Counted from the stretch's first letter, positions 5,578 to 58,262 are shown. The stretch is 64,000 bases of DNA from Candidatus Nomurabacteria bacterium GW2011_GWE2_34_25 (GCA_000990325.1 LBPS01000008.1:97-64096); one strand, 5' to 3'. Notes: generated by a model from the sequence alone, not told the origin. Translations and numbers: made by a program.

Positions 5578-5598
5578 CGGGCGCAAGTCCTTAAAATT

Positions 5599-16108: not shown

Positions 16109-16123
16109 AAGAAGTTGGAGCCG

Positions 16124-16251
16124 GCAAACGAGTTTCGGTCACAAATCTTTTTCTACTGAAAAAGTTCGCGACCCCGGCTCGGCTCGTCAGCCTGCGCCTT
16201 TCGAATCCTCGTGCCGGCAAAAAAGATGTCATTTAGACATCTTTTTTATTG
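16124..16251 (-). repeat. tRNA-adjacent structured repeat element (copy D), ending in an inverted and a direct copy of the tRNA-Thr 3' end
   Basis: The core on the minus strand (ggctgacgagccgag...ctttttcagtagaaaaag...gtgaccgaaa) is homologous to the cores at 57085, 49320 and 58190. An inverted copy ttcgaatcctcgtgccggc sits at 16200-16218. A direct partial copy gagccggcaaacgag sits at 16126-16140. The hairpin aaaaagatgtc-atttag-gacatcttttt lies internally. Confidence 0.7.
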
Positions 16252-21707: not shown

Positions 21708-21735
21708 TATTCTACAATTCTATAGAATTGTAGAA
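21708..21735. promoter_or_regulatory. 28-bp perfect palindrome ATTCTACAATTCTATAGAATTGTAGAAT (candidate operator) upstream of paralog 2
   Basis: Exactly self-complementary, and 33 bp upstream of the start at 21768. Near-identical palindromes occur at 23493 and 48432, with a half-site at 23789. Confidence 0.7.
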
Positions 21736-21767
21736 TAGATTAATCTTAGATAATATTAATTAAATAT

Positions 21768-23465
21768 ATGCAAAGTGAAATTAAAATTTGTCAAAACTGT
21801 AAAAATGATTTCACTATAGATCCTGAGGATTTTTTATTTTATGAGAAAATAAAAGTTCCTCCACCAACCTTTTGTCCACATTGTCGGTTTGTACGACGAT
21901 TAATATGGAAAAACGAACGGTCTTTATATAAAAGAAAATGTGATATGTGCCAAGAAAGTATTATTTCAATGTATAATGAAAAAGTAGCTTTTTATGTATA
22001 TTGTTCTTCTTGTTACAAAAGTGATAAATGGGAAGCAGGAGAATATGCGCAAAACTATGATTTTAGTAAAGCATTTTTTACACAATGGAAAGAATTGTTT
22101 AATAAAGTTTCAAGGCAGTCACTATGGCAATTTGGTGATTGTATAGATTCAGAATATGCTAATTTTGTATATTTTTCTAAAAATGTATATTTAAGTAGTT
22201 CTATTATAGACGGGTCCGAAGATGTATATTTTTCAAATAACGTTGATGGATCAAAACAAGTAATAGATTCATTTAATGTATTAAAGAGCGAATTAATTTA
22301 TCAAAATATCAGTGGAAATAAAAATTATAATTGTCAATACTCATATTGGTCAACTGGATGTATAGATTGTAATTTCATACTTGATTGTAATAATTGCCAA
22401 GATTGTTTTGGTTGTGTAAATTTACAAAATAAAAGATATTGTATTTGGAATATTCAATATACAAAAGAACAGTATGAAGAGAAGATGAAAGAATTAAATA
22501 CAGGCAAGCACTCTTTTGTTGAAGAGTTTTCAAAAATATTTTGGGAATTTACATTAGAATTTCCAAGGAAACATGCAAGAATTATTAATTCTATTGATTC
22601 TACTGGTGATGAGCTTAGAAATAATAAAAATACCTCAAGTTCTTTTAATGTTTATGATTCTGAAAATCTTAAATATACATACAGATGTGTTCACGCAAAA
22701 GATTCCATGGATATTTGTCATTCATATGCAGAGCACGCGTATGAGCATGCTTTTGCTGGTGCTGAGAACAGTCAGAACATTAAATTTGTTATTACAGGAG
22801 AAGTTGCTTTAAGCATGGTTGAGTATTTAGATGCCTGTAAATCTTCCTCTAATCTCTTCGGTTGCATAGGTCTCAAAAACAAACAGTATTGTATTTTAAA
22901 TAAGCAATATACAAAAGAAGAATACGAAGAAATGATACCAAAAATTAAACAACATATGGATGAAATGCCGTATATAGATAGTAAGGGCAGGGTATATAAG
23001 TATGGAGAATTCTTTCCTTATGAACTATGTCCATTTGGATACAACGAAGCTGTTATAAATGATCATTTTCCATTAACCAAAGAAGAAACAATAGAAAGGG
23101 GATATCCATACAAAGAAAAGATAGATAACAAATATACAATTACTTTAAAAGCCAAAGATATACCAGATGATATAAAAGATGTAGACGATTCTATACTAAA
23201 TGAAGTTATAGAGTGTGAAGCATCAGGTAAAGCATTTAAAATAACTCCATTTGAACTTCAATTTTACAAACGTATGAATATTCCCATCCCTAGACTTCAT
23301 CCAGATGAAAGATACAAGAAACGCTTAGCTCTGAGGAATCCGATGACTCTATATACTCGCACTTGTATGAATGAAGGTTGCACAAATACATTTGAGACTA
23401 CCTATGCTCCAAATAGGCCAGAGATAGTATATTGTAAAGAATGTTACCAGAGGGAAGTGTATTAG
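21768..23465 (+). CDS. Cys-rich repeat protein with terminal tandem zinc ribbons (paralog 2 of 4)
   Basis: 565 aa. N-terminal CQNCKNDFTI...FYEKIKVPPPTFCPHCR, C-terminal RTCMNEGCTNTFETTYAPNRPEIVYCKECYQREVY, and internal NCNNCQDCFGCVNLQNKRYCIWNIQYTKEQYEE repeats. Confidence 0.8.
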   Translation: MQSEIKICQNCKNDFTIDPEDFLFYEKIKVPPPTFCPHCRFVRRLIWKNERSLYKRKCDMCQESIISMYNEKVAFYVYCSSCYKSDKWEAGEYAQNYDFSKAFFTQWKELFNKVSRQSLWQFGDCIDSEYANFVYFSKNVYLSSSIIDGSEDVYFSNNVDGSKQVIDSFNVLKSELIYQNISGNKNYNCQYSYWSTGCIDCNFILDCNNCQDCFGCVNLQNKRYCIWNIQYTKEQYEEKMKELNTGKHSFVEEFSKIFWEFTLEFPRKHARIINSIDSTGDELRNNKNTSSSFNVYDSENLKYTYRCVHAKDSMDICHSYAEHAYEHAFAGAENSQNIKFVITGEVALSMVEYLDACKSSSNLFGCIGLKNKQYCILNKQYTKEEYEEMIPKIKQHMDEMPYIDSKGRVYKYGEFFPYELCPFGYNEAVINDHFPLTKEETIERGYPYKEKIDNKYTITLKAKDIPDDIKDVDDSILNEVIECEASGKAFKITPFELQFYKRMNIPIPRLHPDERYKKRLALRNPMTLYTRTCMNEGCTNTFETTYAPNRPEIVYCKECYQREVY

Positions 23466-23492
23466 TAGTTTATTTTATATTATAAATAGTAT

Positions 23493-23520
23493 TCTATAAT
23501 TCTATAGAATTATAGAATAG
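23493..23520. promoter_or_regulatory. 28-bp perfect palindrome ATTCTATAATTCTATAGAATTATAGAAT, 12 bp upstream of the ArsR-like gene
   Basis: Perfectly self-complementary. It shares the TTCTATAGAA core with 21708 and 48432. Confidence 0.7.
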
Positions 23521-23531
23521 AAATAAATATT

Positions 23532-23804
23532 ATGAGAAAAACAAATAGAGAATTAGAAAGAATAGTTAAAGGGTTTGCAAATCACAGAAGAATTGAAATA
23601 TTATTCCTACTAGATAAGAATCCAGATTTGTCTGTTCTTGCGATTTCTGATAGATTGAAGTCTGATTTTAAAAATATTTCAGCTCATATAAGTAAAATGT
23701 ATATTGCGGGACTTTTAGTTAAAAGAAGTATGGGGAATACAGTTTGTCATAAACTTACGAAGCGTGGTAAATCTATTCTACAATTCGTTAGAATTATAGA
23801 ATAG
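23532..23804 (+). CDS. ArsR/SmtB-family winged-helix transcriptional regulator
   Basis: 90 aa containing ANHRRIEILFLL...LSVLAISDRL...NISAHISKMYIAGLL, the ArsR HTH signature. Confidence 0.7.
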   Translation: MRKTNRELERIVKGFANHRRIEILFLLDKNPDLSVLAISDRLKSDFKNISAHISKMYIAGLLVKRSMGNTVCHKLTKRGKSILQFVRIIE

Positions 23805-23833: not shown

Positions 23834-25079
23834 ATGAAAGCGATTGATTTTAAAATAGAAAAAAAGTTGGAAGGATTTTTAGGTAGAGCAGGGACTCTGA
23901 CTACACCTCATGGAGTTATAGAGACTCCATCTTTTGTCGTTGTGGGGACGAAGGGGACAGTCAAAGCTATGACTCCCGAACAGCTCAAGGAGATAGGTGT
24001 GCAAGTTACACTTGCCAATACTTACCATCTTTATTTACAACCAGGAAGTGATTTAGTACGTGAGGCAGGAGGCTTACATAAGTTTATGAATTGGCAGGGG
24101 CCCATGATGACAGACTCTGGTGGATTCCAAGTATTTTCTCTTGGTGTGGCTTACGGCAAAGAGCTTTCCAAAGTTGTTTCTGTAAAGGCTTGCAACCATA
24201 GGGAACGACGGAGTTTCTTTCCGATCACACTTAGATGGATCGCTTCATTATATAACTCCAGAGAAGTCTATCGAGATTCAGCACAACTTAGGAGCCGATA
24301 TTATATTTGCTTTTGATGAATGTACCTCGCCGACAGAAAGTGAACGCTATCAAGATGAAGCATTGTCTCGCACTCACTCTTGGGCCAAGAGGAGTTTGGA
24401 GGAGCATAAGAAACGGGAGGAAGCAAAGCAAGAATATGCGAATTCTTCACGCTTTACCCTAGAGGGGCCCTACGCTGATAAGAATTTTCATATTCCTATT
24501 TCGCCTTGGCCCCAGGCTCTCTTTGGCATTGTCCAAGGAGGACGTAGTGAAGAGCTTAGGAAGAAGTCTGCTAAAGTTATAGGAGAAATGGACTTCGATG
24601 GTTTTGGGATTGGTGGATCTTTTGCCAAAGAGGATATGTCGACTGCTGTAAAGTGGGTCAATGAAGTGCTCCCAGAAGACAAACCTCGCCATTTACTAGG
24701 TATCGGTGAACCGGAAGATCTTTTCTCTGGAGTAGAAAACGGGGTTGATCTTTTTGATTGTGTGGCACCCACTCGTATTGCTCGCAACGGAACGATGTTT
24801 ACAAAGAACGGCAAGATAAATATTTTGAATGCTAAGTTTGTAAAAGATTTTAATCCGATAGACGAAGGGTGCAAGTGTAATACTTGTACAAATTATACTC
24901 GTGCATATCTTTCACACCTCTTTCGTGCTAAAGAAATGCTAGGAGCAACTTTGGCTTCTATTCACAATGTCTACTTTATAACCAATCTAGTAAAACAAAT
25001 GCGCGATGCTATACTAAATGATACGTTTCAAGATTTTAAAAATGAATTTTTAAAAAATTATGACAGACAAAGTATTTAA
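23834..25079 (+). pseudogene. tgt: Queuine tRNA-ribosyltransferase interrupted by a +1 frameshift near 24180 (pseudogene or sequence error)
   Basis: Frame 2 encodes the N-terminal TGT part up to [11 protein letters not shown]. After a TAA at 24183, frame 3 continues with [21 protein letters not shown]...DECTSP... and the C-terminal Zn site CKCNTCTNYTRAYLSHL. The two pieces align end to end with canonical Tgt. Confidence 0.85.
24440..24491 (+). repeat. In-frame palindromic insertion element inside tgt (encodes NSSRFTLEGPYADKNFH)
   Basis: gaattcttcacgctttaccctagaggggccctacgctgataagaattttcat is about 80% identical to a segment inside uvrA at 28637-28690. It is absent from canonical Tgt at this position. 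Confidence 0.65.
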
Positions 25080-27273
25080 ATTAAAGAGTGGGTACAAGCC
25101 CGATGGCGACCAGCCAAAGGCCATAAAAGAGCTTCTGGAAGGTCTTAAGAAGGGTTTTGATAAACAGACGCTCCTAGGTGCTACTGGTACAGGGAAGACT
25201 TTCACGATAGCCAATGTTATCGAAGAGTGGGGGAAGCCGACCTTGGTCATAGCCCACAACAAGACTCTCGCTGCTCAGCTGGCTCAAGAATTTAGGGAGT
25301 TTTTCCCTGATGCCGCTGTACACTATTTTGTGTCTTATTATGATTACTATCAGCCAGAAGCATACATGCCAGTGACCGATACTTATATAGAGAAAGATGC
25401 TCAGATAAACAAAGAGATAGATAGGCTTCGCCATGCCACTACGCAGTCACTTCTTACACGCAAGGACGTTATTATTGTGGCTTCTGTTTCTTGTATTTAT
25501 GGTCTTGGAAGTCCAGAAGAATACGAGAAGGTAAATTTGAAACTTGAAATTGGATCCAAGATTGGAAGGACAGAATTAATGCGAAAGTTACTCGGAGTTC
25601 ATTTTGAAAGAACGAACTCAGACCTTACTCCAGGAACTTTCCGTTCTATTGGAGATAGAGTAGAAGTCATGCCTATATCGGAGACTTTTGTATATCAAAT
25701 AGAATTTGTAGGAGGTGCTATTTCTAAAATTTTAAAAGTAGACCCTGTGTCTGCCCATGTTCTGAAAGAAGAGAGTGGTATTTTCCTTTTTCCAGCCAAG
25801 CACTTTATTACCGAGACAGAGAAAGTAAAAGTGGCATTAAAGAATATTAAACTTGAGCTTACACAACAATTAAAAAAGTTTGAGAAGGAAGGCAAGCTTC
25901 TGGAGGCAGAAAGGATAAAGAGAAGAACCAATTATGATTTAGCAATGATCAAGGAAGTTGGATATTGTAGTGGTATCGAGAATTATAGTAGACAGCTTTC
26001 TGGCAAGAAGGAAGGGGAAGCTCCAGATACACTTCTCTCGTATTTCAAGAGTGATTTCTTAACTATTATCGATGAATCTCATGTGACTCTTCCTCAGCTA
26101 GGTGGTATGTATGCAGGCGATGCTTCTCGCAAGAAGACTCTTGTAGACTTCGGCTTCCGTCTGCCTTCTGCCAAGGACAATAGGCCTCTTAAGTATAATG
26201 AATTTGAAGAAAGAATTGGAGATGTGATATATGTATCAGCAACCCCAAGCGAGACAGAGAGGACAACTAGTGCTCAAGTTGTTGAACAGATTATTCGCCC
26301 AACAGGATTGATAGATCCAGAAATATTGGTAAGACCGGTTTCTGCAACAGAGGCTTCAGAATTTTTGAAAAATAATCGCTTATCCCTACCGAATTCTGAC
26401 AGTAGTCAGAATTCGGCGCGCGTCCACACCTACGATTATTTTTCTAAAAATTCTTTCGCCTCTTATCCTGGCCAAATTGAAGACTTTGTAGAAGAAGCAA
26501 ACCGAGTTATTAAAAAGGGTTTCCGTGCTATTGCTACGACTTTGACCAAGAATATGGCGGAGGACCTAACTTTATTTTTGAAAGAAAAGGGATTCAAAGC
26601 AGAGTACTTACATAGTGATATTAAAACCATAGAGAGAATTCAAATACTTTCTTCTTTTAGAAGAGGGGACTTTGATATTCTTATAGGAGTCAATTTACTC
26701 CGCGAAGGATTAGACTTACCCGAGCTAGCCTTGATAGGAATCTTGGATGCAGACAAGGAAGGTTTCCTTCGTTCGGAAACTTCTCTGATTCAGATTATAG
26801 GAAGAGCTGCTCGAAACGTAGAGGGGAGAGTTGTACTTTATGCTGATCGTATGACCAAGGCCCTAGAGAGTGCCATAGGAGAGACAAATAGAAGAAGAGA
26901 TATCCAGATAGCTTACAACAAGAAGCATGGTATTACTCCCCAGACTATTATAAAAAAGATTAATGATATTACCGAAGAGCTCGAGAACAAGCACGAGAAG
27001 GCGGTGAATGCAGAGCTAGACTTAGATGTAGAATTGTTCAAGAAGACTTTTGTAACAAGTAAAAGTAATAAGGGTAAAGGGGAAAGAGAATCTATCAAGA
27101 ATTTACTTCTTTCAGATGAAGATAGGAACAAATCTATTTATGAAAAAATTATAAAGATAAAAGAGAAGGAAATGAATAAAGCGGTGAAGGAACTAGACTT
27201 CGAAACTGCTGCTATATTACGAGATGAGATTATTATTTTGAATGATAAGTTTTTAAATAAAAATACAAAATAA
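25060..27273 (+). CDS. uvrB: Excinuclease ABC subunit B
   Basis: Walker A GATGTGKTF, helicase motifs, and the C-terminal UvrB/UvrC interaction motif ELDFETAAILRDEI. It carries an extra ~40-aa insertion. Confidence 0.95.
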   Translation: MTDKVFKLKSGYKPDGDQPKAIKELLEGLKKGFDKQTLLGATGTGKTFTIANVIEEWGKPTLVIAHNKTLAAQLAQEFREFFPDAAVHYFVSYYDYYQPEAYMPVTDTYIEKDAQINKEIDRLRHATTQSLLTRKDVIIVASVSCIYGLGSPEEYEKVNLKLEIGSKIGRTELMRKLLGVHFERTNSDLTPGTFRSIGDRVEVMPISETFVYQIEFVGGAISKILKVDPVSAHVLKEESGIFLFPAKHFITETEKVKVALKNIKLELTQQLKKFEKEGKLLEAERIKRRTNYDLAMIKEVGYCSGIENYSRQLSGKKEGEAPDTLLSYFKSDFLTIIDESHVTLPQLGGMYAGDASRKKTLVDFGFRLPSAKDNRPLKYNEFEERIGDVIYVSATPSETERTTSAQVVEQIIRPTGLIDPEILVRPVSATEASEFLKNNRLSLPNSDSSQNSARVHTYDYFSKNSFASYPGQIEDFVEEANRVIKKGFRAIATTLTKNMAEDLTLFLKEKGFKAEYLHSDIKTIERIQILSSFRRGDFDILIGVNLLREGLDLPELALIGILDADKEGFLRSETSLIQIIGRAARNVEGRVVLYADRMTKALESAIGETNRRRDIQIAYNKKHGITPQTIIKKINDITEELENKHEKAVNAELDLDVELFKKTFVTSKSNKGKGERESIKNLLLSDEDRNKSIYEKIIKIKEKEMNKAVKELDFETAAILRDEIIILNDKFLNKNTK
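26355..26475 (+). repeat. In-frame ~120-bp insertion in uvrB containing a 28-bp perfect palindrome (ccgaattctgacagtagtcagaattcgg) plus a segment related to the tgt/uvrA elements
   Basis: The perfect palindrome lies at 26389-26416. The downstream tttctaaaaattctttcgcctcttatcctgg resembles aaaaattcttcgcgctttaccctaaaggg in uvrA. The encoded ASEFLKNNRLSLPNSDSSQNSARVHTYDYFSKNSFASYPG is extra relative to canonical UvrB. Confidence 0.55.
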
Positions 27274-27276
27274 AAA

Positions 27277-27310
27277 AGCCACTCCAGTTGTTGGAATGGC
27301 CTTCGTTTTG
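27277..27310 (+). terminator. Hairpin after uvrB (gccactccag-ttgt-tggaatggc) followed by T-rich tract
   Basis: A 9-10 bp stem with one mismatch, followed by ttcgtttt. Confidence 0.5.
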
Positions 27311-27364
27311 ATTAGACATGTAATGGCGTAACCTGTCTCTTTATTGAGTGAAAAGAATTTTTGT

Positions 27365-27438
27365 AGCCGAAAACGAGGACTCGAACCCGCGACCCCAACC
27401 TTGTCCATGTTGTGCTCTACCAACTGAGCTATTTCGGC
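27365..27438 (-). tRNA. tRNA gene with a non-canonical anticodon and T arm; isotype uncertain (best reading anticodon GAC, Val)
   Basis: Acceptor GCCGAAA/TTTCGGC. The D arm is identical to that of tRNA-Thr at 16252. Anticodon region CAACA-TGGACAA-GGTTG with G at position 33. The T arm pairs only with wobbles and an 8-nt loop. Confidence 0.6.
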
Positions 27439-27478
27439 ATATATTTATTTCAATTCCATATTACTTATTTTGAGATCT

Positions 27479-27507
27479 TTGTCAAGTCTAAGGTTTTGTG
27501 TTATCAT
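27479..27507 (+). promoter_or_regulatory. Candidate sigma-70 promoter TTGTCA-17bp-TATCAT upstream of uvrA
   Basis: Hexamers with a 17-bp spacer about 70 bp upstream of the uvrA start. A weak hairpin lies between promoter and start. Confidence 0.35.
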
Positions 27508-27577
27508 GTTAGTAACTAAATATCAGTATACACCCCCTAAGAACTTTGGGAGGTGTCGTTATGTGTTTAAGTAATTT

Positions 27578-30268
27578 ATGAAAAAAGATACAACAGACAA
27601 AATAATAATAAAAGGGGCTAGAACTCACAATTTGAAGAATATTAGTGTTGAGATGCCGAGGAATAAAATGATAGTTATTACTGGTATGTCTGGCTCTGGT
27701 AAGTCTTCTTTGGCATTCGATACTATATTTGCTGAAGGGCAAAGGCGCTATGTGGAGAGTCTCTCTGCTTATGCTCGCCAATTCTTGAACCAAATGCCGA
27801 AGCCAGATGTCGATGAGATTACTGGTCTTTCTCCAGCTATTTCTATCGACCAGAAGTCTAGGTCGAACAATCCTCGTTCAACAGTTGCAACCATCACAGA
27901 GATATATGACTATCTTCGTGTTCTTTATGCACGTATAGGGCATCCTCATTGCCCCGAGTGTGGCAATGAGATTAAGAAACTTTCCAATGATGAAATACTT
28001 CATTTTGCAATAGATAAGATAAAGAATTTTCAAAAGGATAATAAAAACCCCGTAAAAAAGCAAAGCTTTAACGGGGCGAGGAAAGTATTAGGTGTCGAGT
28101 GGAACGAAGCTCCTGTCTCAATTCTTTCTCCGGTAGTTAGAGGTAGGAAAGGTGAGTACTACCAACTTCTTTATGATTTACTCAACAAAGGTTTTGCCGA
28201 GGTTCGTCTAGATGGACAGATCAAGAAACTAAGAGAGAGGATTGATATTACGAAGACAAAAAAGCACGACATAGAAGTTATAGTAGACACATTCCAAATA
28301 CATGAATTCAAAGACAATGAAAAGGATTCATACTCACGTCTAGCAGAGAGTGTCGAGAGAGCCTTACTTGAATCCGATGGCCTTGTAATTATTAAAATAG
28401 ATGAAGACGAGTACCTTATGTCTTCCAAGTTTTCTTGTGCCAACGATGGTTTCGCTTTTCCTGAGATAGAGCCTAGGCTTTTCTCTTTCAATTCCCCATA
28501 TGGAGCTTGTCCTACTTGTAATGGACTTGGTACGAAGTATTTCGGTGGCACAGAACCTTGTGATGATTGTAAGGGTTTGCGATTACGACCTGAAGCACTT
28601 CATGTATATCTAGGTAAATCCGCTCCGCAGAAGCATAAAAATTCTTCGCGCTTTACCCTAAAGGGCTCCGACGCGGATAAGAATTTTCATGTTTCTGCTC
28701 CGCTAAATATTGTAGACGTTACTAAACTTTCCATTTCAGATGTTGCTGACTTTTTTATTGAACTACAGTTGAACGATCAAGAAAAAGAAATTTCAAAAGT
28801 AGTTATCAAAGAGATCGAGGCACGAATTCAGTTTTTACTAAACGTCGGGCTTGATTATTTATCTCTCGACCGAAAAGCCAATACTCTCTCTGGAGGAGAA
28901 GCGCAGAGAATACGTTTGGCTTCCCAGCTTGGTTCACGACTTGTCGGAGCTTTGTATGTGCTCGATGAACCGACGATAGGTTTACATCAGAGAGACAACG
29001 ACAAGCTTATTAAAACCCTTGAGAATCTTCGTGACTTAGGGAACACTATCATTGTCGTAGAGCACGATGAAGATACTATATATGCATCGGATTATATTGT
29101 AGATATAGGCCCGAAGGCTGGAGTACATGGAGGGCAAGTAATAGTGTCGGATTATTTACAAGATTTACTTGATGCACCAAAGAACGTTTCCAATTCTAGA
29201 ACTTTAGCATATCTTAGAAATGAAGCTAGAATAGAAGTTCCGGAGAAAAGAAGAAATAGCGATAAGGGTAGTATCAAAATAATTGGAGGTAAAATTTTCA
29301 ATATTGATAATCTCAATGCTGAGGTTCCTCTAGGTAAGCTTGTCACTATTACGGGAGTATCAGGAAGTGGGAAGAGTTCTTTCATGTATGAGATTATCCA
29401 CAAGAATCTTCAGGCAAGATATGAAAGGAAGTTTAGAACAGCAAAGATTTTCAACTGCGCATCTTTCACTGGGACGGAGTATGCTTCTCGCGTCGTTCTT
29501 ATCGATCAGTCTCCTATAGGCCGTACTCCTCGCTCCAACTTAGCTACTTACACAGGAGCATTTACTCATATCCGTGATATGTTCGCACTTAGTGAAGAAG
29601 CAAGACTGAAAGGTTGGAAAGCCAATAGATTCTCTTTCAATGTGAAGGGTGGACGCTGTGAGGCTTGTGAAGGGAATGGAGAGGTAGCGGTAGAGATGCA
29701 TTTCTTGCCGACTGTTTACGTCACTTGTGATGTTTGTAATGGTAAAAGATTTGACAAAGAGACTTTGACTGTGAAATATAAAAAGAAAAATATTTATGAA
29801 GTTCTTCAAATGACAGTTGAAGAAGCGATAACTTTCTGGGAAGATATTCCCGCTGTGTACGATCGCATGAAGACGCTTATGGAAGTCGGTCTTGGCTATG
29901 TGAAGCTTGGCCAGTCTGCTACAACTCTTTCGGGTGGAGAAGCACAACGCGTAAAAATTTCTTCAGAATTATTTAGACCGTATGAAGAGAAGACTATTTA
30001 TCTACTAGATGAGCCGACAGTTGGACTTCATTATGATGACGTAGCAAAGTTGCTTGAAGTTTTGAATAGACTTGTGAATAAGGGCAACAGCGTAGTAGTT
30101 ATAGAGCACAATATGGATATTATAAAATGTTCAGATCACATTATAGATATCGGCCCCGAAGGTGGTCTCGGTGGTGGCAAGATTGTAGCAAAGGGAACTC
30201 CTGAAGAAGTTGCTAATAATAAAAATTCACACACTGGTAAATATCTTAAGAAAGTTTTGAAAAAATAG
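27578..30268 (+). CDS. uvrA: Excinuclease ABC subunit A
   Basis: Two ABC ATPase modules (GMSGSGKSSL, GVSGSGKSS, LSGGEAQR x2) and Zn-finger CxxC pairs. Confidence 0.95.
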   Translation: MKKDTTDKIIIKGARTHNLKNISVEMPRNKMIVITGMSGSGKSSLAFDTIFAEGQRRYVESLSAYARQFLNQMPKPDVDEITGLSPAISIDQKSRSNNPRSTVATITEIYDYLRVLYARIGHPHCPECGNEIKKLSNDEILHFAIDKIKNFQKDNKNPVKKQSFNGARKVLGVEWNEAPVSILSPVVRGRKGEYYQLLYDLLNKGFAEVRLDGQIKKLRERIDITKTKKHDIEVIVDTFQIHEFKDNEKDSYSRLAESVERALLESDGLVIIKIDEDEYLMSSKFSCANDGFAFPEIEPRLFSFNSPYGACPTCNGLGTKYFGGTEPCDDCKGLRLRPEALHVYLGKSAPQKHKNSSRFTLKGSDADKNFHVSAPLNIVDVTKLSISDVADFFIELQLNDQEKEISKVVIKEIEARIQFLLNVGLDYLSLDRKANTLSGGEAQRIRLASQLGSRLVGALYVLDEPTIGLHQRDNDKLIKTLENLRDLGNTIIVVEHDEDTIYASDYIVDIGPKAGVHGGQVIVSDYLQDLLDAPKNVSNSRTLAYLRNEARIEVPEKRRNSDKGSIKIIGGKIFNIDNLNAEVPLGKLVTITGVSGSGKSSFMYEIIHKNLQARYERKFRTAKIFNCASFTGTEYASRVVLIDQSPIGRTPRSNLATYTGAFTHIRDMFALSEEARLKGWKANRFSFNVKGGRCEACEGNGEVAVEMHFLPTVYVTCDVCNGKRFDKETLTVKYKKKNIYEVLQMTVEEAITFWEDIPAVYDRMKTLMEVGLGYVKLGQSATTLSGGEAQRVKISSELFRPYEEKTIYLLDEPTVGLHYDDVAKLLEVLNRLVNKGNSVVVIEHNMDIIKCSDHIIDIGPEGGLGGGKIVAKGTPEEVANNKNSHTGKYLKKVLKK
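28622..28703 (+). repeat. In-frame ~80-bp near-perfect palindromic insertion inside uvrA (encodes APQKHKNSSRFTLKGSDADKNFHVS)
   Basis: ccgcagaagcataaaaattcttcgcg...cgcggataagaattttcatgtttctgctccgc has arms of ~25 bp that are reverse complements. Its core matches the tgt element at 24440. The region is extra relative to canonical UvrA. Confidence 0.7.
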
Positions 30269-30765: not shown

Positions 30766-31947
30766 GTGAATAGTCAACAGCTTAAGAAAATAGGGGTACC
30801 AGACAAGCCAGGGGTTTATTTTTTCCGTAAGGACAAAACTATACTTTATATAGGTAAGGCTACTTCGTTGCGGGATAGGGTAAAGAGCTATTTCTCAAAG
30901 GATATCATCGTTACCAGAGGGTCACATATATTAGATATGACGGTAAAAGCGGATAGGGTAGAATGGCAGGAGACGGATAGCGTTCTTGAATCTCTTATTT
31001 TAGAGGCAAATCTTATAAAGAAATTTAAGCCGAAATACAATACTAAAGAGAAGGATAACAAGAGCTTTAATTATGTTTGTATAACCAAAGAAAAGTTACC
31101 CAAAATTTTAATAGTTCGTGGTAGAGGAATGGATAAAAAGTTATATAGCAAAGTCTACGGTCCATTCCCAAATGGTCAGCAACTTAAAGAGGCAATGAAG
31201 ATTATTCGCAGAATTTTCCCATATTTTGACAATGATTCGTTAAAAAGGAATAATAGGGAATTTTACAAACAAATAGGACTAATTCCAGAAAAAGAATTTC
31301 AAGAAAATATAAAGAATATTAAGCTCTTATTTGAAGGAAAGAAGAAAAGTATTGTTATAAATCTTAAAGCTAAAATGGCAGCATTTTCAAAATCAAAAGA
31401 TTTTGAAAATGCTGCCAGAATTCGAGACCAAATATATGCCTTAAATCATATAAATGATATTTCCTTAATAAAAGAGGAAATATATGGAAGTCCGACTTCC
31501 ATATTTCGTATTGAAGCTTATGACGTGGCTCATATGGGAGGCAAGAATATGGTTGGAGTTATGACTGTTGTTGAGAATGGTGAAGTCAATAAAAGTGAAT
31601 ATAAGAAGTTTATTATCAGAACTCAAAGTGATGCCAATGACACAGGCGCACTCGAGGAAGTTCTTTCTCGTAGATTGCGTCATACAGAGTGGGGTTTGCC
31701 TAGTCTAATTGTTGTCGATGGTAGTACCGCCCAAGTAAATGTAGCTAAGAGAGTATTAAGTAGGTACCAGTTTGAGATACCAATAGTCGGAGTGGTGAAA
31801 GATGACAAACATAGACCAAAAGTGATAATAGGTAATGAAGAAATAATTAAAATATACAAAAAGCAGATCCTTCTTGCCAACAGTGAGTCACACAGATTTG
31901 CTATAACTTTCCATAAACAAAAGAGAAATAAAAGTTTTCTAAAATAG
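30766..31947 (+). CDS. uvrC: Excinuclease ABC subunit C, compact form (GIY-YIG nuclease + UVR domain + RNase H-like domain, lacking the C-terminal HhH)
   Basis: PGVYFFRKDKTILYIGKATSLRDRVKSYF (GIY-YIG), YGPFPNG, FENAARIRDQIYAL (UVR), and a C-terminal RNase H-like endonuclease region (EAYDVAHMGG). Confidence 0.85.
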   Translation: MNSQQLKKIGVPDKPGVYFFRKDKTILYIGKATSLRDRVKSYFSKDIIVTRGSHILDMTVKADRVEWQETDSVLESLILEANLIKKFKPKYNTKEKDNKSFNYVCITKEKLPKILIVRGRGMDKKLYSKVYGPFPNGQQLKEAMKIIRRIFPYFDNDSLKRNNREFYKQIGLIPEKEFQENIKNIKLLFEGKKKSIVINLKAKMAAFSKSKDFENAARIRDQIYALNHINDISLIKEEIYGSPTSIFRIEAYDVAHMGGKNMVGVMTVVENGEVNKSEYKKFIIRTQSDANDTGALEEVLSRRLRHTEWGLPSLIVVDGSTAQVNVAKRVLSRYQFEIPIVGVVKDDKHRPKVIIGNEEIIKIYKKQILLANSESHRFAITFHKQKRNKSFLK

Positions 31948-46669: not shown

Positions 46670-46756
46670 TAGAATATAGACAAAGTAACATTAAAACTGT
46701 AAGCTTAATTTATAATTATAATATAAAGACTCCAGCAAGGCTGGTAAAATAATAAA

Positions 46757-48421: not shown

Positions 48422-48431
48422 ATAATATCTG

Positions 48432-48459
48432 TTCTCTAATTCTATAGAATTGTAGAATA
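48432..48459. promoter_or_regulatory. Near-perfect palindrome TTCTCTAATTCTATAGAATTGTAGAATA, 10 bp upstream of the methyltransferase gene
   Basis: One mismatch from perfect symmetry. It belongs to the same motif family as 21708 and 23493. Confidence 0.65.
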
Positions 48460-49245: not shown

Positions 49246-49291
49246 TTAATAACAAAAAGCTACTTCTCAAATAGCTCTCTTTGATAGCGTA

Positions 49292-49397
49292 TTCTTGAAT
49301 AGTCTTATCAGAGGGGCCGGCGGAGAGTGACGACTCGAGCAATGAGCAAATTTTCAGCAGAAAATTATGCGGACCCTCTGAGAAGAGCTATTCAAGA
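49292..49397 (+). repeat. Structured repeat element copy A (~105 bp), with terminal inverted repeats tcttgaatagtcttatcagagggg / ccctctgagaagagctattcaaga
   Basis: The core ggcggagagtgacgactcgagcaatgagcaaattttcagcagaaaattatgcgg is homologous to the cores at 57085 and 58190 (reverse complement) and 16140 (reverse complement). It lies between convergent genes. Confidence 0.75.
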
Positions 49398-49406
49398 AGA
49401 AGCTTA

Positions 49407-55466: not shown

Positions 55467-56600
55467 ATGCAAAACAAATCACTTTCATACATAGAAATCT
55501 CAAAAGATAATTTGATACACAATATCAGGCAGTTTAGAGTTCTTTTGAAGAATAAGACGAAAATTGCTGTAGTGGTGAAGGCCAATGCTTACGGTCATGG
55601 AGACATGGAGGTAGCCAAGATCGTAAATCCTTACGTGGATTATTTTCAGGTAGATAGTATAGAGGAGGCCGAGAGAGTAAGAAAGGTAAGCAAGAAACCT
55701 ATTCTAATATTTGGATATACAAATGAAGATGGGGTAAAAAGAGCTATAAAGATAGGGGCGATAATTTCTGCTTTTGATTTGATACATCTTTTGAAGATTA
55801 ATCGTGTTGCAGAAATTTCTAAAAAGAAAATAAAAGTTCATCTTGCGATAGATTCGTATTTAGGCAGAGAGGGTATCATGCCTTCTCAAGTAGAGAATAT
55901 AATAAAAGAAATAAAAAATTTAAATAATATAGTTTTAGATGGAGTATATTCACATTTTGCAAACATCGAGGATACAATGAATTCTACTCATGCCAACAGA
56001 CAGATAGATACATATCATAAGTGTGTAGAGATTTTTAGGGAAAATGGTTACAAAAATATCAATACACACATATCAGCGACTTCAGGGATTTTGGTTTATG
56101 AAAAAGGGGATAATTTACACAGTATTGTTCGTCTTGGTATTGGGCTTTATGGTATGTGGCCAAGTGAACACTTGGAATATTTGAATAAAAAGAAAATAAA
56201 TTTGAAGCCAGTTTTGAAATGGGTCACTCATGTTGCTCAAGTGAAAGTTATCCCTGCCAATCATCCCATAGGTTATGGTCTGACTTACATTACCAAGAAA
56301 GCGACCAAGATAGCCGTCATTCCTCAGGGCTATTACGATGGGCTCACGCGTTCAATGTCTAATAATGGGGAATTCTTGATAAGAGGCAAAAAAGCGAAGA
56401 TTATAGGCCGAGTTGCCATGAATATGATCGTAGTAGATGTATCACACATTAAAGATGTTCGAGCAGATGATGAGGTGGTTATAATAGGCATACAAGGTAA
56501 AGCTAAAATCACAGCTGAAGATATGGCGAAAAGGATGGATACTATAAATTATGAAGTAACTACGAAAATAAGTGCCTTATTGCCAAGAGTGATTATATAA
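55467..56600 (+). CDS. alr: Alanine racemase
   Basis: PLP-lysine motif AVVKANAYGHG and a C-terminal beta domain. It starts 5 bp after ddl. Confidence 0.88.
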   Translation: MQNKSLSYIEISKDNLIHNIRQFRVLLKNKTKIAVVVKANAYGHGDMEVAKIVNPYVDYFQVDSIEEAERVRKVSKKPILIFGYTNEDGVKRAIKIGAIISAFDLIHLLKINRVAEISKKKIKVHLAIDSYLGREGIMPSQVENIIKEIKNLNNIVLDGVYSHFANIEDTMNSTHANRQIDTYHKCVEIFRENGYKNINTHISATSGILVYEKGDNLHSIVRLGIGLYGMWPSEHLEYLNKKKINLKPVLKWVTHVAQVKVIPANHPIGYGLTYITKKATKIAVIPQGYYDGLTRSMSNNGEFLIRGKKAKIIGRVAMNMIVVDVSHIKDVRADDEVVIIGIQGKAKITAEDMAKRMDTINYEVTTKISALLPRVII

Positions 56601-56710
56601 AAGGTGAAAATGTTTAAAATTTACGAGTAGGTGTGGGCGCGCCGTAGCGTAACGAAGTGAAGCGGAGAGGGATAAGCGAGTAAATTTGAAACATTTTCAC
56701 CTTTTATATA
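56593..56710. repeat. 118-bp palindromic element: ~33-bp near-perfect inverted repeats (ttatataaaaggtgaaaatgtttaaaatttacgag) flanking a 48-bp G+C-rich centre containing GGCGCGCC
   Basis: The arms are reverse complements with one mismatch. The centre (gtgggcgcgccgtagcgtaacgaagtgaagcggagagggataagcgag) shares the gcggagag...cgag motif with the repeat cores at 49320 and 57090. Confidence 0.7.
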
Positions 56711-57035: not shown

Positions 57036-57182
57036 AGAAAATAAACAAGATGTTATCTTGTCTATTTTAGATGGAAGAATCGGAAGACGGAGGCTGACGA
57101 GCCGAGTTGGGGTCGAGAGATTTTTCAGCAGAAAAATAATCGTGACCGAAAGTGTAATCACGATTCCTCCATCGTTCGCAGT
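57036..57182 (+). repeat. tRNA-adjacent structured repeat element (copy C), with an inverted and a direct copy of the tRNA-Trp 3' end
   Basis: Hairpin aacaagat-gtt-atcttgt, inverted copy gatggaagaatcg, core ggaggctgacgagccgagttggggtcgagagatttttcagcagaaaaataatcgtgaccgaaag, then direct copy cgattcctccatcgttcg (compare tRNA cgattcctccatcgcccg). Same layout as copy D at tRNA-Thr. Confidence 0.75.
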
Positions 57183-58136
57183 TTATTTCAAAAACTTTTT
57201 TATTTCTTTCAAAGCTTTTGCTTCTTCAGATTTTTTAGTTGGATTTATCCAAATAGTATTTAAATCACGCTTAAACCATGTTTTTTGGCGTTTGGCATAG
57301 TGCCATGTTTCAGTATTTATTTTTTCTATCATATCATCTCTTGAAATTTTCTTTTGTAAATACTGTGCCCCATATCTATATTCAAGTCCTAGAGCCTCCA
57401 TTCTCTTCCATGACAATCCAGCCTTATGAAGATTCTCAATCTCTTTCAGCATTCCTTTCTTAATACGGGCAAGTAGGCGAGCCTGGATTCTCTCTTTTAG
57501 TATTTCATCTGGTACAGTAAGTCCAATTTTTAAAACCTCAAATTTCGGGAGTTTAGAAACCTCTACAAACTCTGCCATGGCAGAGTTTGTAGAGGTTTTA
57601 TTATTTATTATTTTAGGGATTTTACCCAAGGCTTTAGCTATTTCTATAGCACGAATTAGGCGGACAGGATTGTTTATATCAATATTTTTTGCTCTCTCTT
57701 TATCTAACTTTTTTAATATTTTAAAAAGTTCCCCCGTAGATTTTTTAGAAAGTTCTTCGCGAAGTTCCTTATTGGGAGGGACTTCAGGGAAGGTTACTCC
57801 ATTTACAACTGCATCTATGTAGAAGCCTGTACCACCACAAATTATTGGAATCTTTTTATTTTTTATTATTTTTTTGATTTTCTTATCGACGAGTTTTTTA
57901 AAATCAGAGACAGTAAAAACTTTTTTTGGTGAAGCTACATCAAGCAAATGGTGAAGCACACCCTTCCTCTCTTTCTTTGTTATTTTCCCTGTACCCAAGT
58001 CCATACCTTTATACACTTGCCTAGAATCAGCAGAGATTATTTCTCCTCCTATTTCTTTAGCAACTTCCACAGCAAAATCACTCTTACCAGTGGAAGTTTG
58101 ACCTAGAATTACAATAATTTTGGGCTTTATTTTCAT
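57183..58136 (-). CDS. miaA: tRNA dimethylallyltransferase
   Basis: P-loop IIVILGQTSTGKS and motif DSRQVYKGMDLGTGK. The start is chosen at MKIKPK. The longer ORF upstream merely translates repeat copy B. Confidence 0.88.
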   Translation of the reverse strand: MKIKPKIIVILGQTSTGKSDFAVEVAKEIGGEIISADSRQVYKGMDLGTGKITKKERKGVLHHLLDVASPKKVFTVSDFKKLVDKKIKKIIKNKKIPIICGGTGFYIDAVVNGVTFPEVPPNKELREELSKKSTGELFKILKKLDKERAKNIDINNPVRLIRAIEIAKALGKIPKIINNKTSTNSAMAEFVEVSKLPKFEVLKIGLTVPDEILKERIQARLLARIKKGMLKEIENLHKAGLSWKRMEALGLEYRYGAQYLQKKISRDDMIEKINTETWHYAKRQKTWFKRDLNTIWINPTKKSEEAKALKEIKKFLK

Positions 58137-58164
58137 TTTGTGTGTGAATATATAAATTAGCTTC

Positions 58165-58262
58165 TTTCGAAATGCACACATAATTTTCTGCTGAAAATTT
58201 GCTCTTCTCGACCCGTCGGTCTCCGAAAGGCATTTCTTAAGAACTAATTTATATATTCGCAT
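58165..58262 (-). repeat. Structured repeat element copy B (minus-strand orientation) in the miaA upstream region
   Basis: The reverse complement reads ggagaccgacgggtcgagaagagcaaattttcagcagaaaattatgtgtgc. A 26-bp stretch is identical to copy A. It is flanked by imperfect inverted repeats (ctttcgaaatgc / gcatttcttaag). Confidence 0.7.

What the first reader, a model, noticed from the sequence alone, without database searches (positions are those of the whole stretch)
24440..28703. Short palindromic elements inserted in-frame inside tgt, uvrB and uvrA (RPE-like coding-sequence invaders)
An ~55-bp segment in tgt (24440-24491) and an ~80-bp near-perfect palindrome in uvrA (28622-28703) are about 80% identical at the DNA level. 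They share the pattern ...AATTCTTC(A/G)CGCTTTACCCTA(G/A)AGGG..CC.ACGC.GATAAGAATTTTCAT. They add the related peptides NSSRFTLEGPYADKNFH and NSSRFTLKGSDADKNFH at positions where canonical Tgt and UvrA have no such segment.

uvrB carries a different ~120-bp in-frame insertion (26355-26475). It contains a 28-bp perfect palindrome (ccgaattctgacagtagtcagaattcgg) plus a stretch resembling the same element.

The elements keep the reading frame. They resemble Rickettsia palindromic elements in behaviour, namely selfish palindromic repeats that survive inside essential genes as surface-loop insertions.
Basis: partly seen in the sequence, partly recalled or inferred. Interest (0 to 1): 0.75.

Follow-up and report, generated by a model that had tools for sequence, protein, structure and literature searches.

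The report
Mobile palindromes inside CPR repair genes
Three essential genes of this ultra-small (CPR, Nomurabacteria-like) bacterium carry short hairpin-forming selfish DNA repeats that are read through as extra protein loops, extending to a new phylum what is known from Rickettsia palindromic elements and from REP repeats inside genes.

Summary

**Elements in the window**
- tgt (24423-24504) and uvrA (28622-28703) carry two copies of one hairpin element, "type A".
- uvrB (26350-26462) carries a second family, "type B". Another type B copy lies in the alr-rpmG spacer (56594-56710).
- A third family, "C", has four intergenic copies.

**Distribution**
- The window is from a CPR bacterium (Ca. 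Nomurabacteria/Paceibacterota).
- The type A core occurs 67 times among 185,579 species genomes, apart from a few unclassified records only in MAGs titled as CPR/Patescibacteria, with up to 10 copies per genome.
- About half of those copies are intergenic.
- The rest are in frame, always sense and in one frame (xSRFTLKGSDxxxN), in tgt, uvrA, uvrC, rnhB, ileS, leuS and an rluD-like gene.
- Type B has at least 116 metagenomic copies.

**Evidence for mobility**
- Close relatives show filled and empty alleles.
- The same sites hold different families, or the same family in opposite orientations.

**Architecture**
- A conserved asymmetric core sits at the apex of a stem whose sequence varies while staying paired.
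- Mismatches show no G·U excess, which points to a constraint on DNA rather than RNA.

**Unresolved**
- The mobiliser is unknown. RAYT-like Y1 transposases occur nearby in relatives but are flanked by other hairpins.

**Verdict:** a new variant of a known kind.

The parts
24423..24504 (+). Type A palindromic element inside tgt. The core lies at about 24445-24481. It encodes ..QEYANSSRFTLEGPYADKNFHIPIS... This copy is degenerate.
   Evidence: nhmmer E = 1.7e-15. Fold z = -2.2. Insertion relative to Z. mobilis TGT 193-194. The site is empty in L038 and holds other hairpins in L004 and L071.
28622..28703 (+). Type A palindromic element inside uvrA. It has 20-nt arms and the core TTCGCGCTTTACCCTAAAGGGCTCCGACGCGGATAA. 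It encodes QKHKNSSRFTLKGSDADKNFHVSAP.
   Evidence: E = 7.9e-23. Fold -32.1 kcal/mol, z = -4.8. Absent from canonical UvrA and from CPR UvrA of L030/L012.
26350..26462 (+). Type B palindromic element inside uvrB. It consists of 29-nt outer arms, the junction CGCTTATCCCT, an inner 12-bp hairpin (26389-26416) and the junction GCGCGCGTCCACACCTAC. It encodes most of UvrB residues 428-470.
   Evidence: z = -8.5; E = 4e-13. AF2 pLDDT is below 50 over residues 429-466.
56594..56710 (-). Intergenic type B element between the alr stop codon and rpmG, with 31-nt arms. The alr stop codon lies in the outer left arm.
   Evidence: I9, I22; z = -10.7; E = 1.8e-19. The site is empty in L187, holds type B in the opposite orientation in L186, and holds a family C element in L188.
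28048..28076 (+). Small hairpin CCCCGT..ACGGGG giving a 30-nt (10-codon) in-frame insertion in uvrA; the window reads NPVKKQSFNGAR where L001/L004 read KK. It is present in the window, L005 and L038, and absent from L001, L004 and L019.
31482..31504 (+). Mini-hairpin ATATGGAAGT-CCG-ACTTCCATAT in uvrC, at the site where relative L001 carries a full type A element.
31376..31417 (+). Perfect palindrome with 19-nt arms inside conserved UVR-domain codons of uvrC. There is no length change against L001, which differs at many positions over the same stretch and is not palindromic there.
   Evidence: (I8).
57557..57598 (-). 42-nt perfect palindrome inside miaA, encoding KTSTNSAMAEFVEV. MiaA of relatives is shorter at this point.
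   Evidence: (I3).
16120..16218 (+). Family C hairpin element, intergenic, next to tRNA-Thr.
   Evidence: (I1).
49257..49405 (-). Family C hairpin element, intergenic.
   Evidence: I3; I12.
57074..57151 (-). Family C hairpin element, intergenic, after tRNA-Trp.
   Evidence: (I1).
58143..58261 (+). Family C hairpin element, upstream of miaA.
   Evidence: I3; I16.
23834..25079 (+). Host gene tgt. Its reading frame is broken by a 53-nt deletion at 24183/24184.
25060..27273 (+). Host gene uvrB (737 aa).
27578..30268 (+). Host gene uvrA (896 aa).
30766..31947 (+). Host gene uvrC (393 aa).

Best explanation
The tgt, uvrA and uvrB segments are copies of non-autonomous, hairpin-forming mobile DNA repeats found, as far as the records are classified, only in CPR/Patescibacteria. 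There are at least three families (A, B, C), and they behave like REP/REPIN or RPE-type elements.

**Anatomy (shown).** Each element is one long imperfect palindrome. A conserved, asymmetric core of about 37-55 nt sits at the apex. It is flanked by a 17-30-bp stem whose sequence differs between loci but stays complementary.

**Distribution (shown).** Elements land both between genes and inside genes.

**Survival inside genes (inferred).** Only copies that keep the reading frame and avoid stop codons persist, in permissive linker regions of essential proteins. They are simply translated as extra, probably disordered, loops. The conserved peptide (SRFTLKGSD...) is a by-product of nucleotide-level conservation of the core.

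**Recurrent colonisation (shown).** The same sites are occupied by different families, or by the same family in either orientation.

**Level of constraint (inferred).** The hairpin is maintained at the DNA level, as a single-stranded DNA hairpin or cruciform, not as an RNA structure.

**Mobiliser (inferred, weak).** Spread may use single-stranded DNA intermediates acted on in trans by the RAYT-like Y1 (HUH) tyrosine transposases present in these genomes. Alternatively it may proceed by template switching between hairpins.
For: **Repeat family**
- The 21-nt type A core has 67 exact matches in 64 loci among 185,579 species genomes. Apart from a few records titled only 'bacterium' or 'uncultured bacterium', all are MAGs titled as CPR/Patescibacteria. 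One genome carries 10 matches. There are none in viral contigs.
- Type B has at least 116 metagenomic loci.

**Coding copies**
- 29 of 29 type A copies inside long ORFs are sense and in one frame. Two of them proved to be 5' leaders on inspection.
- Hosts are tgt, uvrA (3 sites), uvrC (2 sites), rnhB, ileS, leuS and an rluD-like gene.
- Type B is translated sense in uvrB. It is translated antisense in tgt, tsaD and a glycosyltransferase.

**Presence/absence between relatives**
- Empty UvrB sites in about 40 of 120 orthologues, with at least 5 different insert families in the rest.
- uvrC is filled in L001 but not in the window.
- tgt is empty in L038, and uvrA is empty in L030/L012.
- The alr-rpmG spacer is empty in L187, carries type B on the minus strand in the window, type B on the plus strand in L186, and family C in L188.

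**Nucleotide-level conservation**
- Intergenic and genic copies share the same core.

**Stem covariation (type B outer stem)**
- 85.9% of cells paired, against 49.8% in shuffles.
- 666 cells changed on both sides, against 209.
- Covariation score 0.805, against 0.186 in shuffles and at most 0.26 in slid controls.

**DNA-level constraint**
- G·T is not enriched over A·C mismatches: 56 against 79 for type B and 22 against 30 for type A.

**Within-genome subfamilies**
- Some copies in one genome share stems, for example L014, L017 and L041.

**Candidate mobiliser**
- Y1_Tnp/RAYT-like genes lie in 6 of 64 8-kb type A loci and beside tgt in L001.

**Tolerance of the insert**
- The UvrB insert has pLDDT below 50 with no secondary structure, between strand 421-425 and helix 472-485.

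**Precedents**
- RPEs (PMC10969869).
- Intragenic REPs concentrated in uvrA/uvrB and other repair genes in other phyla (PMC3733652).
- Compensatory changes in REPIN hairpins (PMC3116915).
Against: - No transposition intermediate, excision junction or demonstrable target-site duplication was found. The short direct repeats CTTCR flanking type A belong to the inserted DNA and are absent from empty alleles.
- The Y1 transposase genes are flanked by their own lineage-specific perfect hairpins, not by A, B or C cores. None lies in the 64-kb window.
- Stems are almost unique per locus while cores are near-identical across distant CPR classes. A simple copy-and-paste MITE does not predict this.
- Three of the six frames of the type A core are stop-free, yet only one is seen in genes (my reading of the sequence). 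Either peptide-level selection or a directional mechanism must be added.
- Translation of the inserts is inferred from intact frames only.
Confidence: 0.75

Rival explanations
1. The hairpins are functional cis-acting RNA structures selected by the host, such as terminators, mRNA stabilisers, RNase or protein-binding sites, or translational pause sites. Under this view the conserved cores are RNA recognition motifs, and the coding copies are tolerated or exploited.
For: - Conserved core plus covarying helices is the classical signature of a structured RNA.
- Many type B copies sit at gene ends, with outer stems that look like intrinsic terminators: G+C-rich stems flanked by A and T runs.
- Type A is biased toward the sense orientation. 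All 29 ORF copies are sense. Intergenic copies are 26 in the same direction and 7 opposite relative to the dominant coding strand.
Against: - G·U-type pairs show no excess over A·C mismatches on the core strand, so the constraint is strand-symmetric.
- Type B occurs in both orientations relative to neighbouring genes, and in opposite orientations at the very same spacer in close relatives.
- Sites are empty in close relatives.
- No Rfam family matches.
- An RNA gene or regulator is not expected in frame inside ten different essential ORFs.
Confidence: 0.1
2. The spread is real but does not depend on a transposase. Cores would be copied from hairpin to hairpin by replication template switching or gene conversion, using the shared A/T-rich inner stem as microhomology. 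Arms would be kept or made complementary by quasipalindrome-templated correction. Pre-existing hairpins would act as landing pads.
For: - The same site holds different cores while keeping a related outer stem. At tgt the left arm reads GCGAAGCAGGAATATGC with type A and GCGAAAAAGATATTGC with antisense type B.
- Mini-hairpins sit at otherwise 'empty' sites (L038 tgt, window uvrC).
- A perfect palindrome with 19-nt arms arose in conserved uvrC codons with no length change.
- Outer arms extend into native flanking sequence at uvrC site 2 and at the alr stop codon.
- Mismatch statistics are strand-symmetric.
- Y1 genes are not flanked by these cores.
Against: - The alr-rpmG empty allele has no hairpin at all, and the empty uvrB and uvrA alleles show none either. 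A landing pad is therefore not required.
- There is no direct evidence for template switching.
- Near-identical cores across distant CPR classes imply horizontal movement, which template switching within a genome does not provide.
Confidence: 0.1
3. The segments are ordinary lineage-specific protein loops in indel-prone linkers. Their DNA similarity and palindromy would be incidental or convergent, and nothing would be mobile.
For: - The sites are hypervariable linkers that tolerate many different sequences.
- The window's tgt copy is degenerate.
Against: - The same core of about 37 nt occurs in at least 7 unrelated genes and in about 35 intergenic sites.
- Similarity statistics: E = 5e-13, with 0 matches expected by chance.
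- Canonical orthologues lack the segments.
Confidence: 0.03
4. The inserts are removed or skipped during gene expression, as intron-like excision or translational bypassing of a hairpin, so the proteins are canonical.
For: - Stable hairpins are what bypass or processing elements use.
- Nothing tested here shows that the peptides exist.
Against: - All 27-29 genic type A copies and all genic type B copies keep the frame and lack stop codons. That would be unnecessary if they were removed.
- Copies in other frames or the other orientation, which splicing would tolerate, are not seen for type A.
- There is no match to a ribozyme or intron family.
Confidence: 0.02

Closest known systems
Rickettsia palindromic elements (RPE-1 to RPE-10; Ogata et al. 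2000, 2002, as summarised in PMC10969869)
   Same: - Palindromic, hairpin-forming, multi-copy repeats in a reduced genome.
- Found both between genes and in frame inside many unrelated housekeeping genes.
- Always in a frame that yields one conserved peptide.
- Thought to sit in permissive parts of the protein.
- No known transposase.
   Different: - Different phylum (CPR) and different sequences. Homology to RPEs was not tested.
- The elements are shorter (about 80-115 nt against about 100-150).
- Only the apical core is conserved, while the stem varies and covaries.
- The same site is occupied by different families, or by the same family in opposite orientations.
REP/REPIN elements with RAYT (REP-associated tyrosine transposases), including intragenic REPs in uvrA/uvrB and other repair genes (Di Nocera et al. 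2013, PMC3733652; Bertels & Rainey 2011, PMC3116915)
   Same: - Small palindromic repeats forming hairpins in single-stranded DNA.
- Compensatory changes preserve the hairpin.
- Several families occur per genome.
- Intragenic copies encode 20-30 residues and are notably found in excinuclease genes.
- Y1/HUH transposase genes flanked by short hairpins are present in the same genomes.
   Different: - In REPINs the two ends (the REPs) are conserved and the central spacer varies. Here the centre is conserved and the arms vary.
- There is no clear GTAG or CGTC tag at the foot of a short stem. Type B has GTAG only on the complementary strand, at an internal junction.
- The Y1 genes sampled are not flanked by A, B or C cores.
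- The best NCBIfam score for REP_Tyr_transpos is 43.9 bits, against a cut-off of 80.
Classical bacterial MITEs (Correia/NEMIS, ERIC, RUP, Nezha and others)
   Same: Non-autonomous, about 100 nt, fold into hairpins, are dispersed, and occasionally make in-frame fusions with ORFs.
   Different: - No conserved terminal inverted repeats.
- No demonstrable target-site duplication.
- No parent insertion sequence with matching ends.

Membership tests
Rickettsia palindromic elements (RPE) | Palindromic repeat predicted to fold into a stable hairpin | tested here: met
   Fold z-scores range from -2.2 to -10.7. All 69 type A copies fold the same way.
Rickettsia palindromic elements (RPE) | Dispersed and multi-copy, in both intergenic and genic positions | tested here: met
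Rickettsia palindromic elements (RPE) | In-frame insertion in unrelated protein-coding genes, yielding a conserved peptide | tested here: met
   The peptide xSRFTLKGSDxxxN occurs in tgt, uvrA, uvrC, rnhB, ileS, leuS and an rluD-like gene.
Rickettsia palindromic elements (RPE) | Sequence homology to RPE consensus sequences, and a Rickettsia host | tested here: not met
   The host is a CPR bacterium (Ca. Nomurabacteria/Paceibacterota). The exact core occurs, as far as the records are classified, only in CPR genomes. No direct alignment to RPE consensus sequences was run.
REP / REPIN-RAYT system | Short (20-40 nt) imperfect palindrome carrying an unpaired GTAG or CGTC tag at one end | tested here: inconclusive
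   In type B the 3' junction CACACCTAC reads GTAGGTGTG on the other strand, but it lies at an internal junction about 13 nt from the inner stem. Type A has CGTC only inside GACGCG/CGCGTC. Neither element has the layout of a REP.
REP / REPIN-RAYT system | REPIN layout: two conserved inverted REPs at the ends and a variable spacer in the middle | tested here: not met
   The conserved part is central and the arms vary.
REP / REPIN-RAYT system | RAYT gene flanked by members of the same repeat family | tested here: not met
   Seven Y1_Tnp genes were inspected. Each is flanked by its own perfect short hairpin, and none by A, B or C cores. The Y1 protein scores 43.9 bits on NF047646, below the cut-off of 80. 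It scores 39.3 bits on Pfam Y1_Tnp, above the cut-off of 23.
REP / REPIN-RAYT system | Hairpin preserved by compensatory changes | tested here: met
   For comparison, the same is reported for REPINs in PMC3116915.
Classical MITE | Conserved terminal inverted repeats recognised by a transposase | tested here: not met
   Outer stems differ between loci, and only subfamily-level similarity is seen.
Classical MITE | Target-site duplication | tested here: inconclusive
   The direct CTTCR repeats flank type A, but they are absent from empty alleles and so are part of the insert. No clean pair of filled and empty alleles from near-identical genomes was available for type A.
Classical MITE | Parent autonomous insertion sequence with matching ends | not tested
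   Only the Y1 genes in the fetched loci were examined. Whole genomes were not available to the tools.
Known structured RNA family (Rfam 15) | Match to a curated covariance model | tested here: not met
   Only tRNAs reach gathering scores. Relaxed searches over the elements gave only sub-threshold generic hairpin hits.

The most novel reading that the evidence does not exclude
The elements may be modular. Under this reading the short asymmetric core is the unit that is recognised and propagated, and it is delivered repeatedly, in either orientation, to the same few 'landing pads': linker codons of essential genes and gene ends. The long stem would be rebuilt or kept paired by strand-symmetric, hairpin-templated repair.

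That would be a previously undescribed mode of spread for prokaryotic repeats. It could be driven by the RAYT-like Y1 enzymes acting in trans on unrelated hairpins, or it could need no transposase at all.

It would continuously remodel the linkers of UvrABC, Tgt, aminoacyl-tRNA synthetases and other core proteins across the CPR. It might also explain why excinuclease genes are recurrent hosts of palindromic repeats in several phyla.
Probability: 0.2. Interest if true: 0.8.

Novelty: new variant of a known kind. Interest (0 to 1): 0.6.

Why it matters
**Rarity.** Protein-coding palindromic repeats have been treated as a peculiarity of Rickettsia and a few other lineages. Finding several abundant families in CPR/Patescibacteria shows that the phenomenon recurs in independently reduced genomes. 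The literature searches run here found no report of it in this group.

**Practical consequences**
- The inserts inflate and diversify 'core' proteins used for CPR phylogeny and annotation.
- They create hypervariable sites that can serve as strain markers.
- They can confuse gene calling.

**Conceptual consequences**
- The architecture (conserved apex, covarying stem), the strand-symmetric constraint and the repeated occupation of identical sites by different families give a tractable system. It can address how transposase-less palindromic repeats move, and why uvrA, uvrB and uvrC are hit again and again across phyla, a bias noted earlier for REPs in PMC3733652.

Tried and rejected
**Searches that led nowhere**
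- Rfam at gathering thresholds and at E up to 10 over all elements: nothing beyond tRNAs and generic hairpin noise. Known ribozymes, introns and sRNAs are therefore rejected.
- Searching the 30-residue uvrA insert peptide against 1.84 billion representative proteins: 0 hits at E up to 0.001, because the query is too short.
- A word-index search with three concatenated variants of the peptide: one RNase HII hit.
- Viral contigs: no type A core, so there is no sign of a phage vector.
- Literature searches for CPR/Patescibacteria/Parcubacteria combined with palindromic, MITE or in-frame terms: nothing relevant.

**Ideas tested and rejected or left open**
- Cores always insert into the apex of a pre-existing hairpin (terminator). 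Rejected as a requirement, because the empty alr-rpmG allele and the empty uvrB and uvrA alleles have no hairpin. It remains possible at some sites.
- One arm of each stem is native target sequence. True only for the outermost few bases at uvrC site 2 and at the alr stop codon, not for uvrB or uvrA.
- The Y1 transposase next to tgt in L001 is flanked by type A or B elements. It is not.
- A tRNA fragment or integration site explains the 16133-16210 / 57074-57151 repeat. Rejected: the two are family C copies.
- The inner hairpin (P2) of type B is universal. Not supported: the commonest subfamily (CTCCGCTCGTTCCTCGCTCCGG) does not form a clean stem (my reading).

Full report
**1. What is in the window**

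The region encodes tgt (23834-25079), uvrB (25060-27273), a tRNA-Val on the minus strand, uvrA (27578-30268) and uvrC (30766-31947). UvrB homologues identify the organism as a CPR bacterium, Ca. Nomurabacteria/Paceibacterota. One ENA contig is 99% identical.

- tgt 24441-24504 and uvrA 28640-28703 are 83% identical without gaps. blastn gives E = 5e-13.
- The shared 26-mer pattern occurs exactly twice, against none in 100 shuffles.
- Both segments are imperfect palindromes.
- uvrB carries a different 113-nt palindrome (26350-26462) with 29-nt arms and an inner hairpin with 12-bp arms.

I call the tgt/uvrA element type A and the uvrB element type B.
- A second type B copy lies, inverted, in the spacer between alr and rpmG (56594-56710).
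- A and B share only an 11-12-nt junction motif, CGCTT(TA/AT)CCCT. It is found four times in the window and only in these four elements.
- A third family, C, has four intergenic copies: 16120-16218, 49257-49405, 57074-57151 and 58143-58261.
- Profile searches find no further A or B copies in the window.

**2. They are insertions**

- Against Bacillus UvrB, residues 428-470 of the window protein face a single residue, between 'VRPV' and 'GQIEDF'.
- Against a solved canonical UvrA, the type A segment lies between 'CxxCxGxRL..ALxVxLGK' and 'NIxxV', which are contiguous in the reference.
- Against Z. mobilis TGT, 27 residues face 2 (using the intact allele of L005).
- In an AF2 model of UvrB of mediocre overall quality (mean pLDDT 63.5), the insert at residues 429-466 has pLDDT below 50 and no secondary structure. 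It lies between strand 421-425 and helix 472-485. This fits a tolerated linker loop but is weak evidence.

**3. Presence and absence among relatives**

*UvrB.* In an alignment of 120 orthologues (75-99% identity), the site is empty in about 40. In the others it is filled by at least five unrelated peptide families:
- KNRLSL..RRAHTYDF, which is type B;
- LFxRSSDEGGxGARPSQK;
- GSHRSDLGA..SLGPTYGP;
- PLLxKEG..FLINSP;
- others.

*Other genes, from DNA of relatives.*
- L001 (92% UvrB identity) has a type A copy in uvrC that the window lacks.
- At that uvrC position the window has only a 10-bp mini-hairpin (31482-31504).
- L038 lacks the tgt element, and L030 and L012 lack the uvrA element.
- L004 has different palindromes at both of those sites.
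- The window has an extra 30-nt hairpin in uvrA (28048-28076) that L001 and L004 lack.

*alr-rpmG spacer.*
- L187 is empty, with the stop codon directly followed by GTTGCATTTTT.
- The window has type B on the minus strand.
- L186 (92% Alr identity) has type B on the plus strand with a different stem.
- L188 has a family C element.

*tgt site in L071, L111 and L136.* It holds a type B element in antisense orientation, translated as ..NRRCGRAGARNERRGISDF...

Identical sites are therefore colonised repeatedly and independently.

**4. Dispersed families found almost only in CPR**

- The type A core TTCNCGCTTTACCCTARAGGG has 67 exact matches in 64 loci among one genome for each of 185,579 species. 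Apart from a few records titled only 'bacterium' or 'uncultured bacterium', all are MAGs titled as Patescibacteria/CPR (Nomurabacteria, Paceibacterota, Nealsonbacteria, Vogelbacteria and others).
- Copies per genome with matches: 10 in fen_1328, 8 in SO_2017_GW3_9, and 7 in the 704-kb GW2011_GWD2_36_14 contig.
- No match occurs in viral contigs.
After false positives were removed, 88 distinct copies were aligned.

**5. Coding behaviour**

- All 29 type A copies that lie in long open frames are on the sense strand and in one frame, giving xSRFTLKGSDxxxN. Two of them are really 5' leaders.
- They occupy ten different sites in seven host genes: tgt, uvrA (three sites), uvrC (two sites), RNase HII, IleRS, LeuRS and an RluD-like pseudouridine synthase.
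- Three of the six frames of the core are free of stop codons (my reading of the sequence). If those frames were equally likely, ten of ten sites agreeing has a probability of about 5e-5 (my calculation). Either peptide-level selection or a directional mechanism is therefore at work.
- Intergenic type A copies are also biased: 26 in the direction of the dominant coding strand and 7 against it.
- Type B is less constrained. It is sense in uvrB but antisense in tgt, tsaD and a glycosyltransferase, and it has mixed orientation between genes.
- Intergenic and genic copies have the same core. The conserved peptide is therefore a by-product of nucleotide conservation.

**6. Architecture**

*Type A.* In all 69 copies the MFE fold is one long hairpin.
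- The apical part is nearly invariant over about 37 nt: TTC(G/C)CGCTTTACCCTAAAGGGCTCCGAC(G/A)CG followed by ACTCA or GATAA.
- The 17-27-bp stem differs from locus to locus yet remains complementary.

*Type B.*
- It has a unique outer stem, often resembling a terminator stem.
- Inside that is an A/T-rich inner stem that falls into subfamilies.
- The junctions CGCTTATCCCT and GCGCGC(C/T)CCACACCTAC are conserved.
- Between the junctions lies a variable insert that is a clean hairpin in some subfamilies only.

*Covariation in the type B outer stem.*
- 85.9% of cells pair, against 49.8% in shuffles.
- 666 cells change on both sides, against 209.
- The covariation score is 0.805, against 0.186 in shuffles and at most 0.26 when the partner columns are slid.
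- The sequences are related, so the shuffle control overstates significance. The slid control does not have that weakness.

*DNA or RNA.* G·T mismatches are not commoner than A·C mismatches on the core strand: 56 against 79 for B and 22 against 30 for A. An RNA structure would tolerate G·U but not A·C. The symmetry therefore indicates a constraint that acts on both DNA strands, as hairpin or cruciform, rather than on a transcript.

*Rfam.* There is no match.

**7. Mechanism: what is shown and what is inferred**

Shown:
- dispersal;
- gain and loss between relatives;
- recurrent use of the same sites;
- frame-preserving survival in genes;
- DNA-level hairpin maintenance;
- subfamilies sharing stems within a genome (for example L014, L017 and L041), which shows that the stem is inherited on copying.

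Inferred:
- The elements are non-autonomous and move through single-stranded hairpin intermediates.
- The candidate enzyme is a RAYT-like Y1 tyrosine transposase. Pfam Y1_Tnp scores 39 bits and passes. NCBIfam REP_Tyr_transpos scores 43.9 bits, below the cut-off of 80.
- That gene lies 3 kb from tgt in L001 and occurs in 6 of the 64 8-kb type A loci.

Against this:
- Each such gene is flanked by its own lineage-specific perfect hairpin, not by A, B or C cores.
- None lies in the window.
- No target-site duplication could be shown. The CTTCR direct repeats around type A are part of the insert.

A transposase-free route remains open: template switching between hairpins combined with quasipalindrome correction. 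Four observations suggest it:
- mini-hairpins at 'empty' sites;
- a perfect palindrome with 19-nt arms created in conserved uvrC codons with no length change (31376-31417);
- stems that extend into native flanking bases;
- related outer stems under different cores at the tgt site.

**8. Comparison with known systems**

- *RPEs.* The behaviour matches Rickettsia palindromic elements: palindromic repeats inserted in frame in many unrelated genes and giving a conserved peptide (PMC10969869).
- *Intragenic REPs.* Di Nocera et al. reported that these lie preferentially in uvrA, uvrB, uvrD, polA and recBCD in several phyla (PMC3733652).
- *REPINs.* Compensatory changes that keep a hairpin are described for REPINs (PMC3116915).
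- *Membership.* It fails for each family on at least one defining feature:
  - not Rickettsia, and no tested homology to RPEs;
  - not the REPIN layout, because here the centre is conserved and the arms vary, and there is no clear GTAG or CGTC tag;
  - no RAYT flanked by the same repeats;
  - no conserved terminal inverted repeats or target-site duplication, as classical MITEs have.
- *Prior reports.* Searches of the paper library found no description of such elements in CPR bacteria.
- *Conclusion.* I file this as a new variant of a known kind.

**9. Caveats**

- Translation of the inserts is inferred only from intact frames.
- tgt in this window carries a 53-nt frameshifting deletion (24183/24184) and a degenerate type A copy (six core differences, fold z = -2.2). 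It may be decaying, or the deletion may be an assembly error. The near-identical contig L005 has an intact tgt.
- Copy numbers are lower bounds, because only exact core matches were counted.
- Orientation relative to replication could not be measured.

Noticed in passing
window 24173-24197 (junction at 24183/24184): tgt is split into two frames by a 53-nt deletion relative to L001, L004 and L005. The deletion removes TDPSLLIPERSTAEDGVP. This is either a pseudogene or an assembly error. The near-identical contig L005 has an intact 431-aa tgt.
   Followed up: partly
window 21708-21737, 23490-23519, 23774-23803, 48430-48459: A 30-nt palindrome, TATTCTACAATTCTATAGAATTGTAGAATA, occurs four times in intergenic DNA. 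It flanks a 565-aa ORF with no Pfam domain (21768-23465; paralogues at about 5594-7269 and 46746-48421) and a 90-aa winged-helix/ArsR-like gene (23532-23804). It looks like an operator for that regulator. The two-gene block is present between mreC and tgt in the window and L005 but absent in L001 and L004.
   Followed up: partly
window 31376-31417: A perfect palindrome with 19-nt arms lies within conserved UVR-domain codons of uvrC (MAAFSKSKDFENAAR). It has the same length as in L001, where the stretch differs at many positions and is not palindromic. This suggests hairpin-templated (quasipalindrome) mutation in this genome.
   Followed up: partly
window 57557-57598 (miaA, minus strand): A 42-nt perfect palindrome with no loop encodes KTSTNSAMAEFVEV in MiaA. 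Relatives L186 and L188 are about 12-15 residues shorter here. L186 has an RSDLG-type hairpin at this point instead.
   Followed up: partly
window 27578-30268: This UvrA (896 aa) and its CPR relatives lack roughly 90 residues that canonical class I UvrA has between the first zinc-finger region and the second CxxC motif. In the alignment, query residues 320-376 face reference residues 305-448.
   Followed up: no
L001 4836-5572; L013, L040, L043, L033, L054, L007: RAYT-like Y1 transposase genes (about 200-228 aa) in relatives are each bracketed by identical short perfect hairpins that differ between lineages, for example CCGACTAGG-TCTTG-CCTAGTCGG in L001. The layout resembles a REPtron. None is present in the window.
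   Followed up: partly
L001 uvrB insert; L186 miaA; UvrB of P0002, P0006, P0032, P0060, P0097: Another palindrome family, built on CCTAGGTCGGACCTAGG (peptide RSDLG), recurs in frame in uvrB and miaA of the closest complete genome. It shares words (CTAGG, GTCGG) with the hairpins flanking that genome's Y1 transposase.
   Followed up: no
L062, L053 (uvrC, uvrA); L004 uvrA: A further coding repeat family has the peptide F(Q/S)xVLGRGGREPVPDH. It occupies uvrA and uvrC sites that hold type A elements in other genomes.
   Followed up: no
L014, L041, L013, L017 (downstream of intergenic type A copies): Some intergenic type A copies share an additional conserved module of about 25 nt, GGAAAYRAAATAGTCYTA, just 3' of the hairpin. 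The repeated unit may therefore be longer than the palindrome in that subfamily.
   Followed up: no
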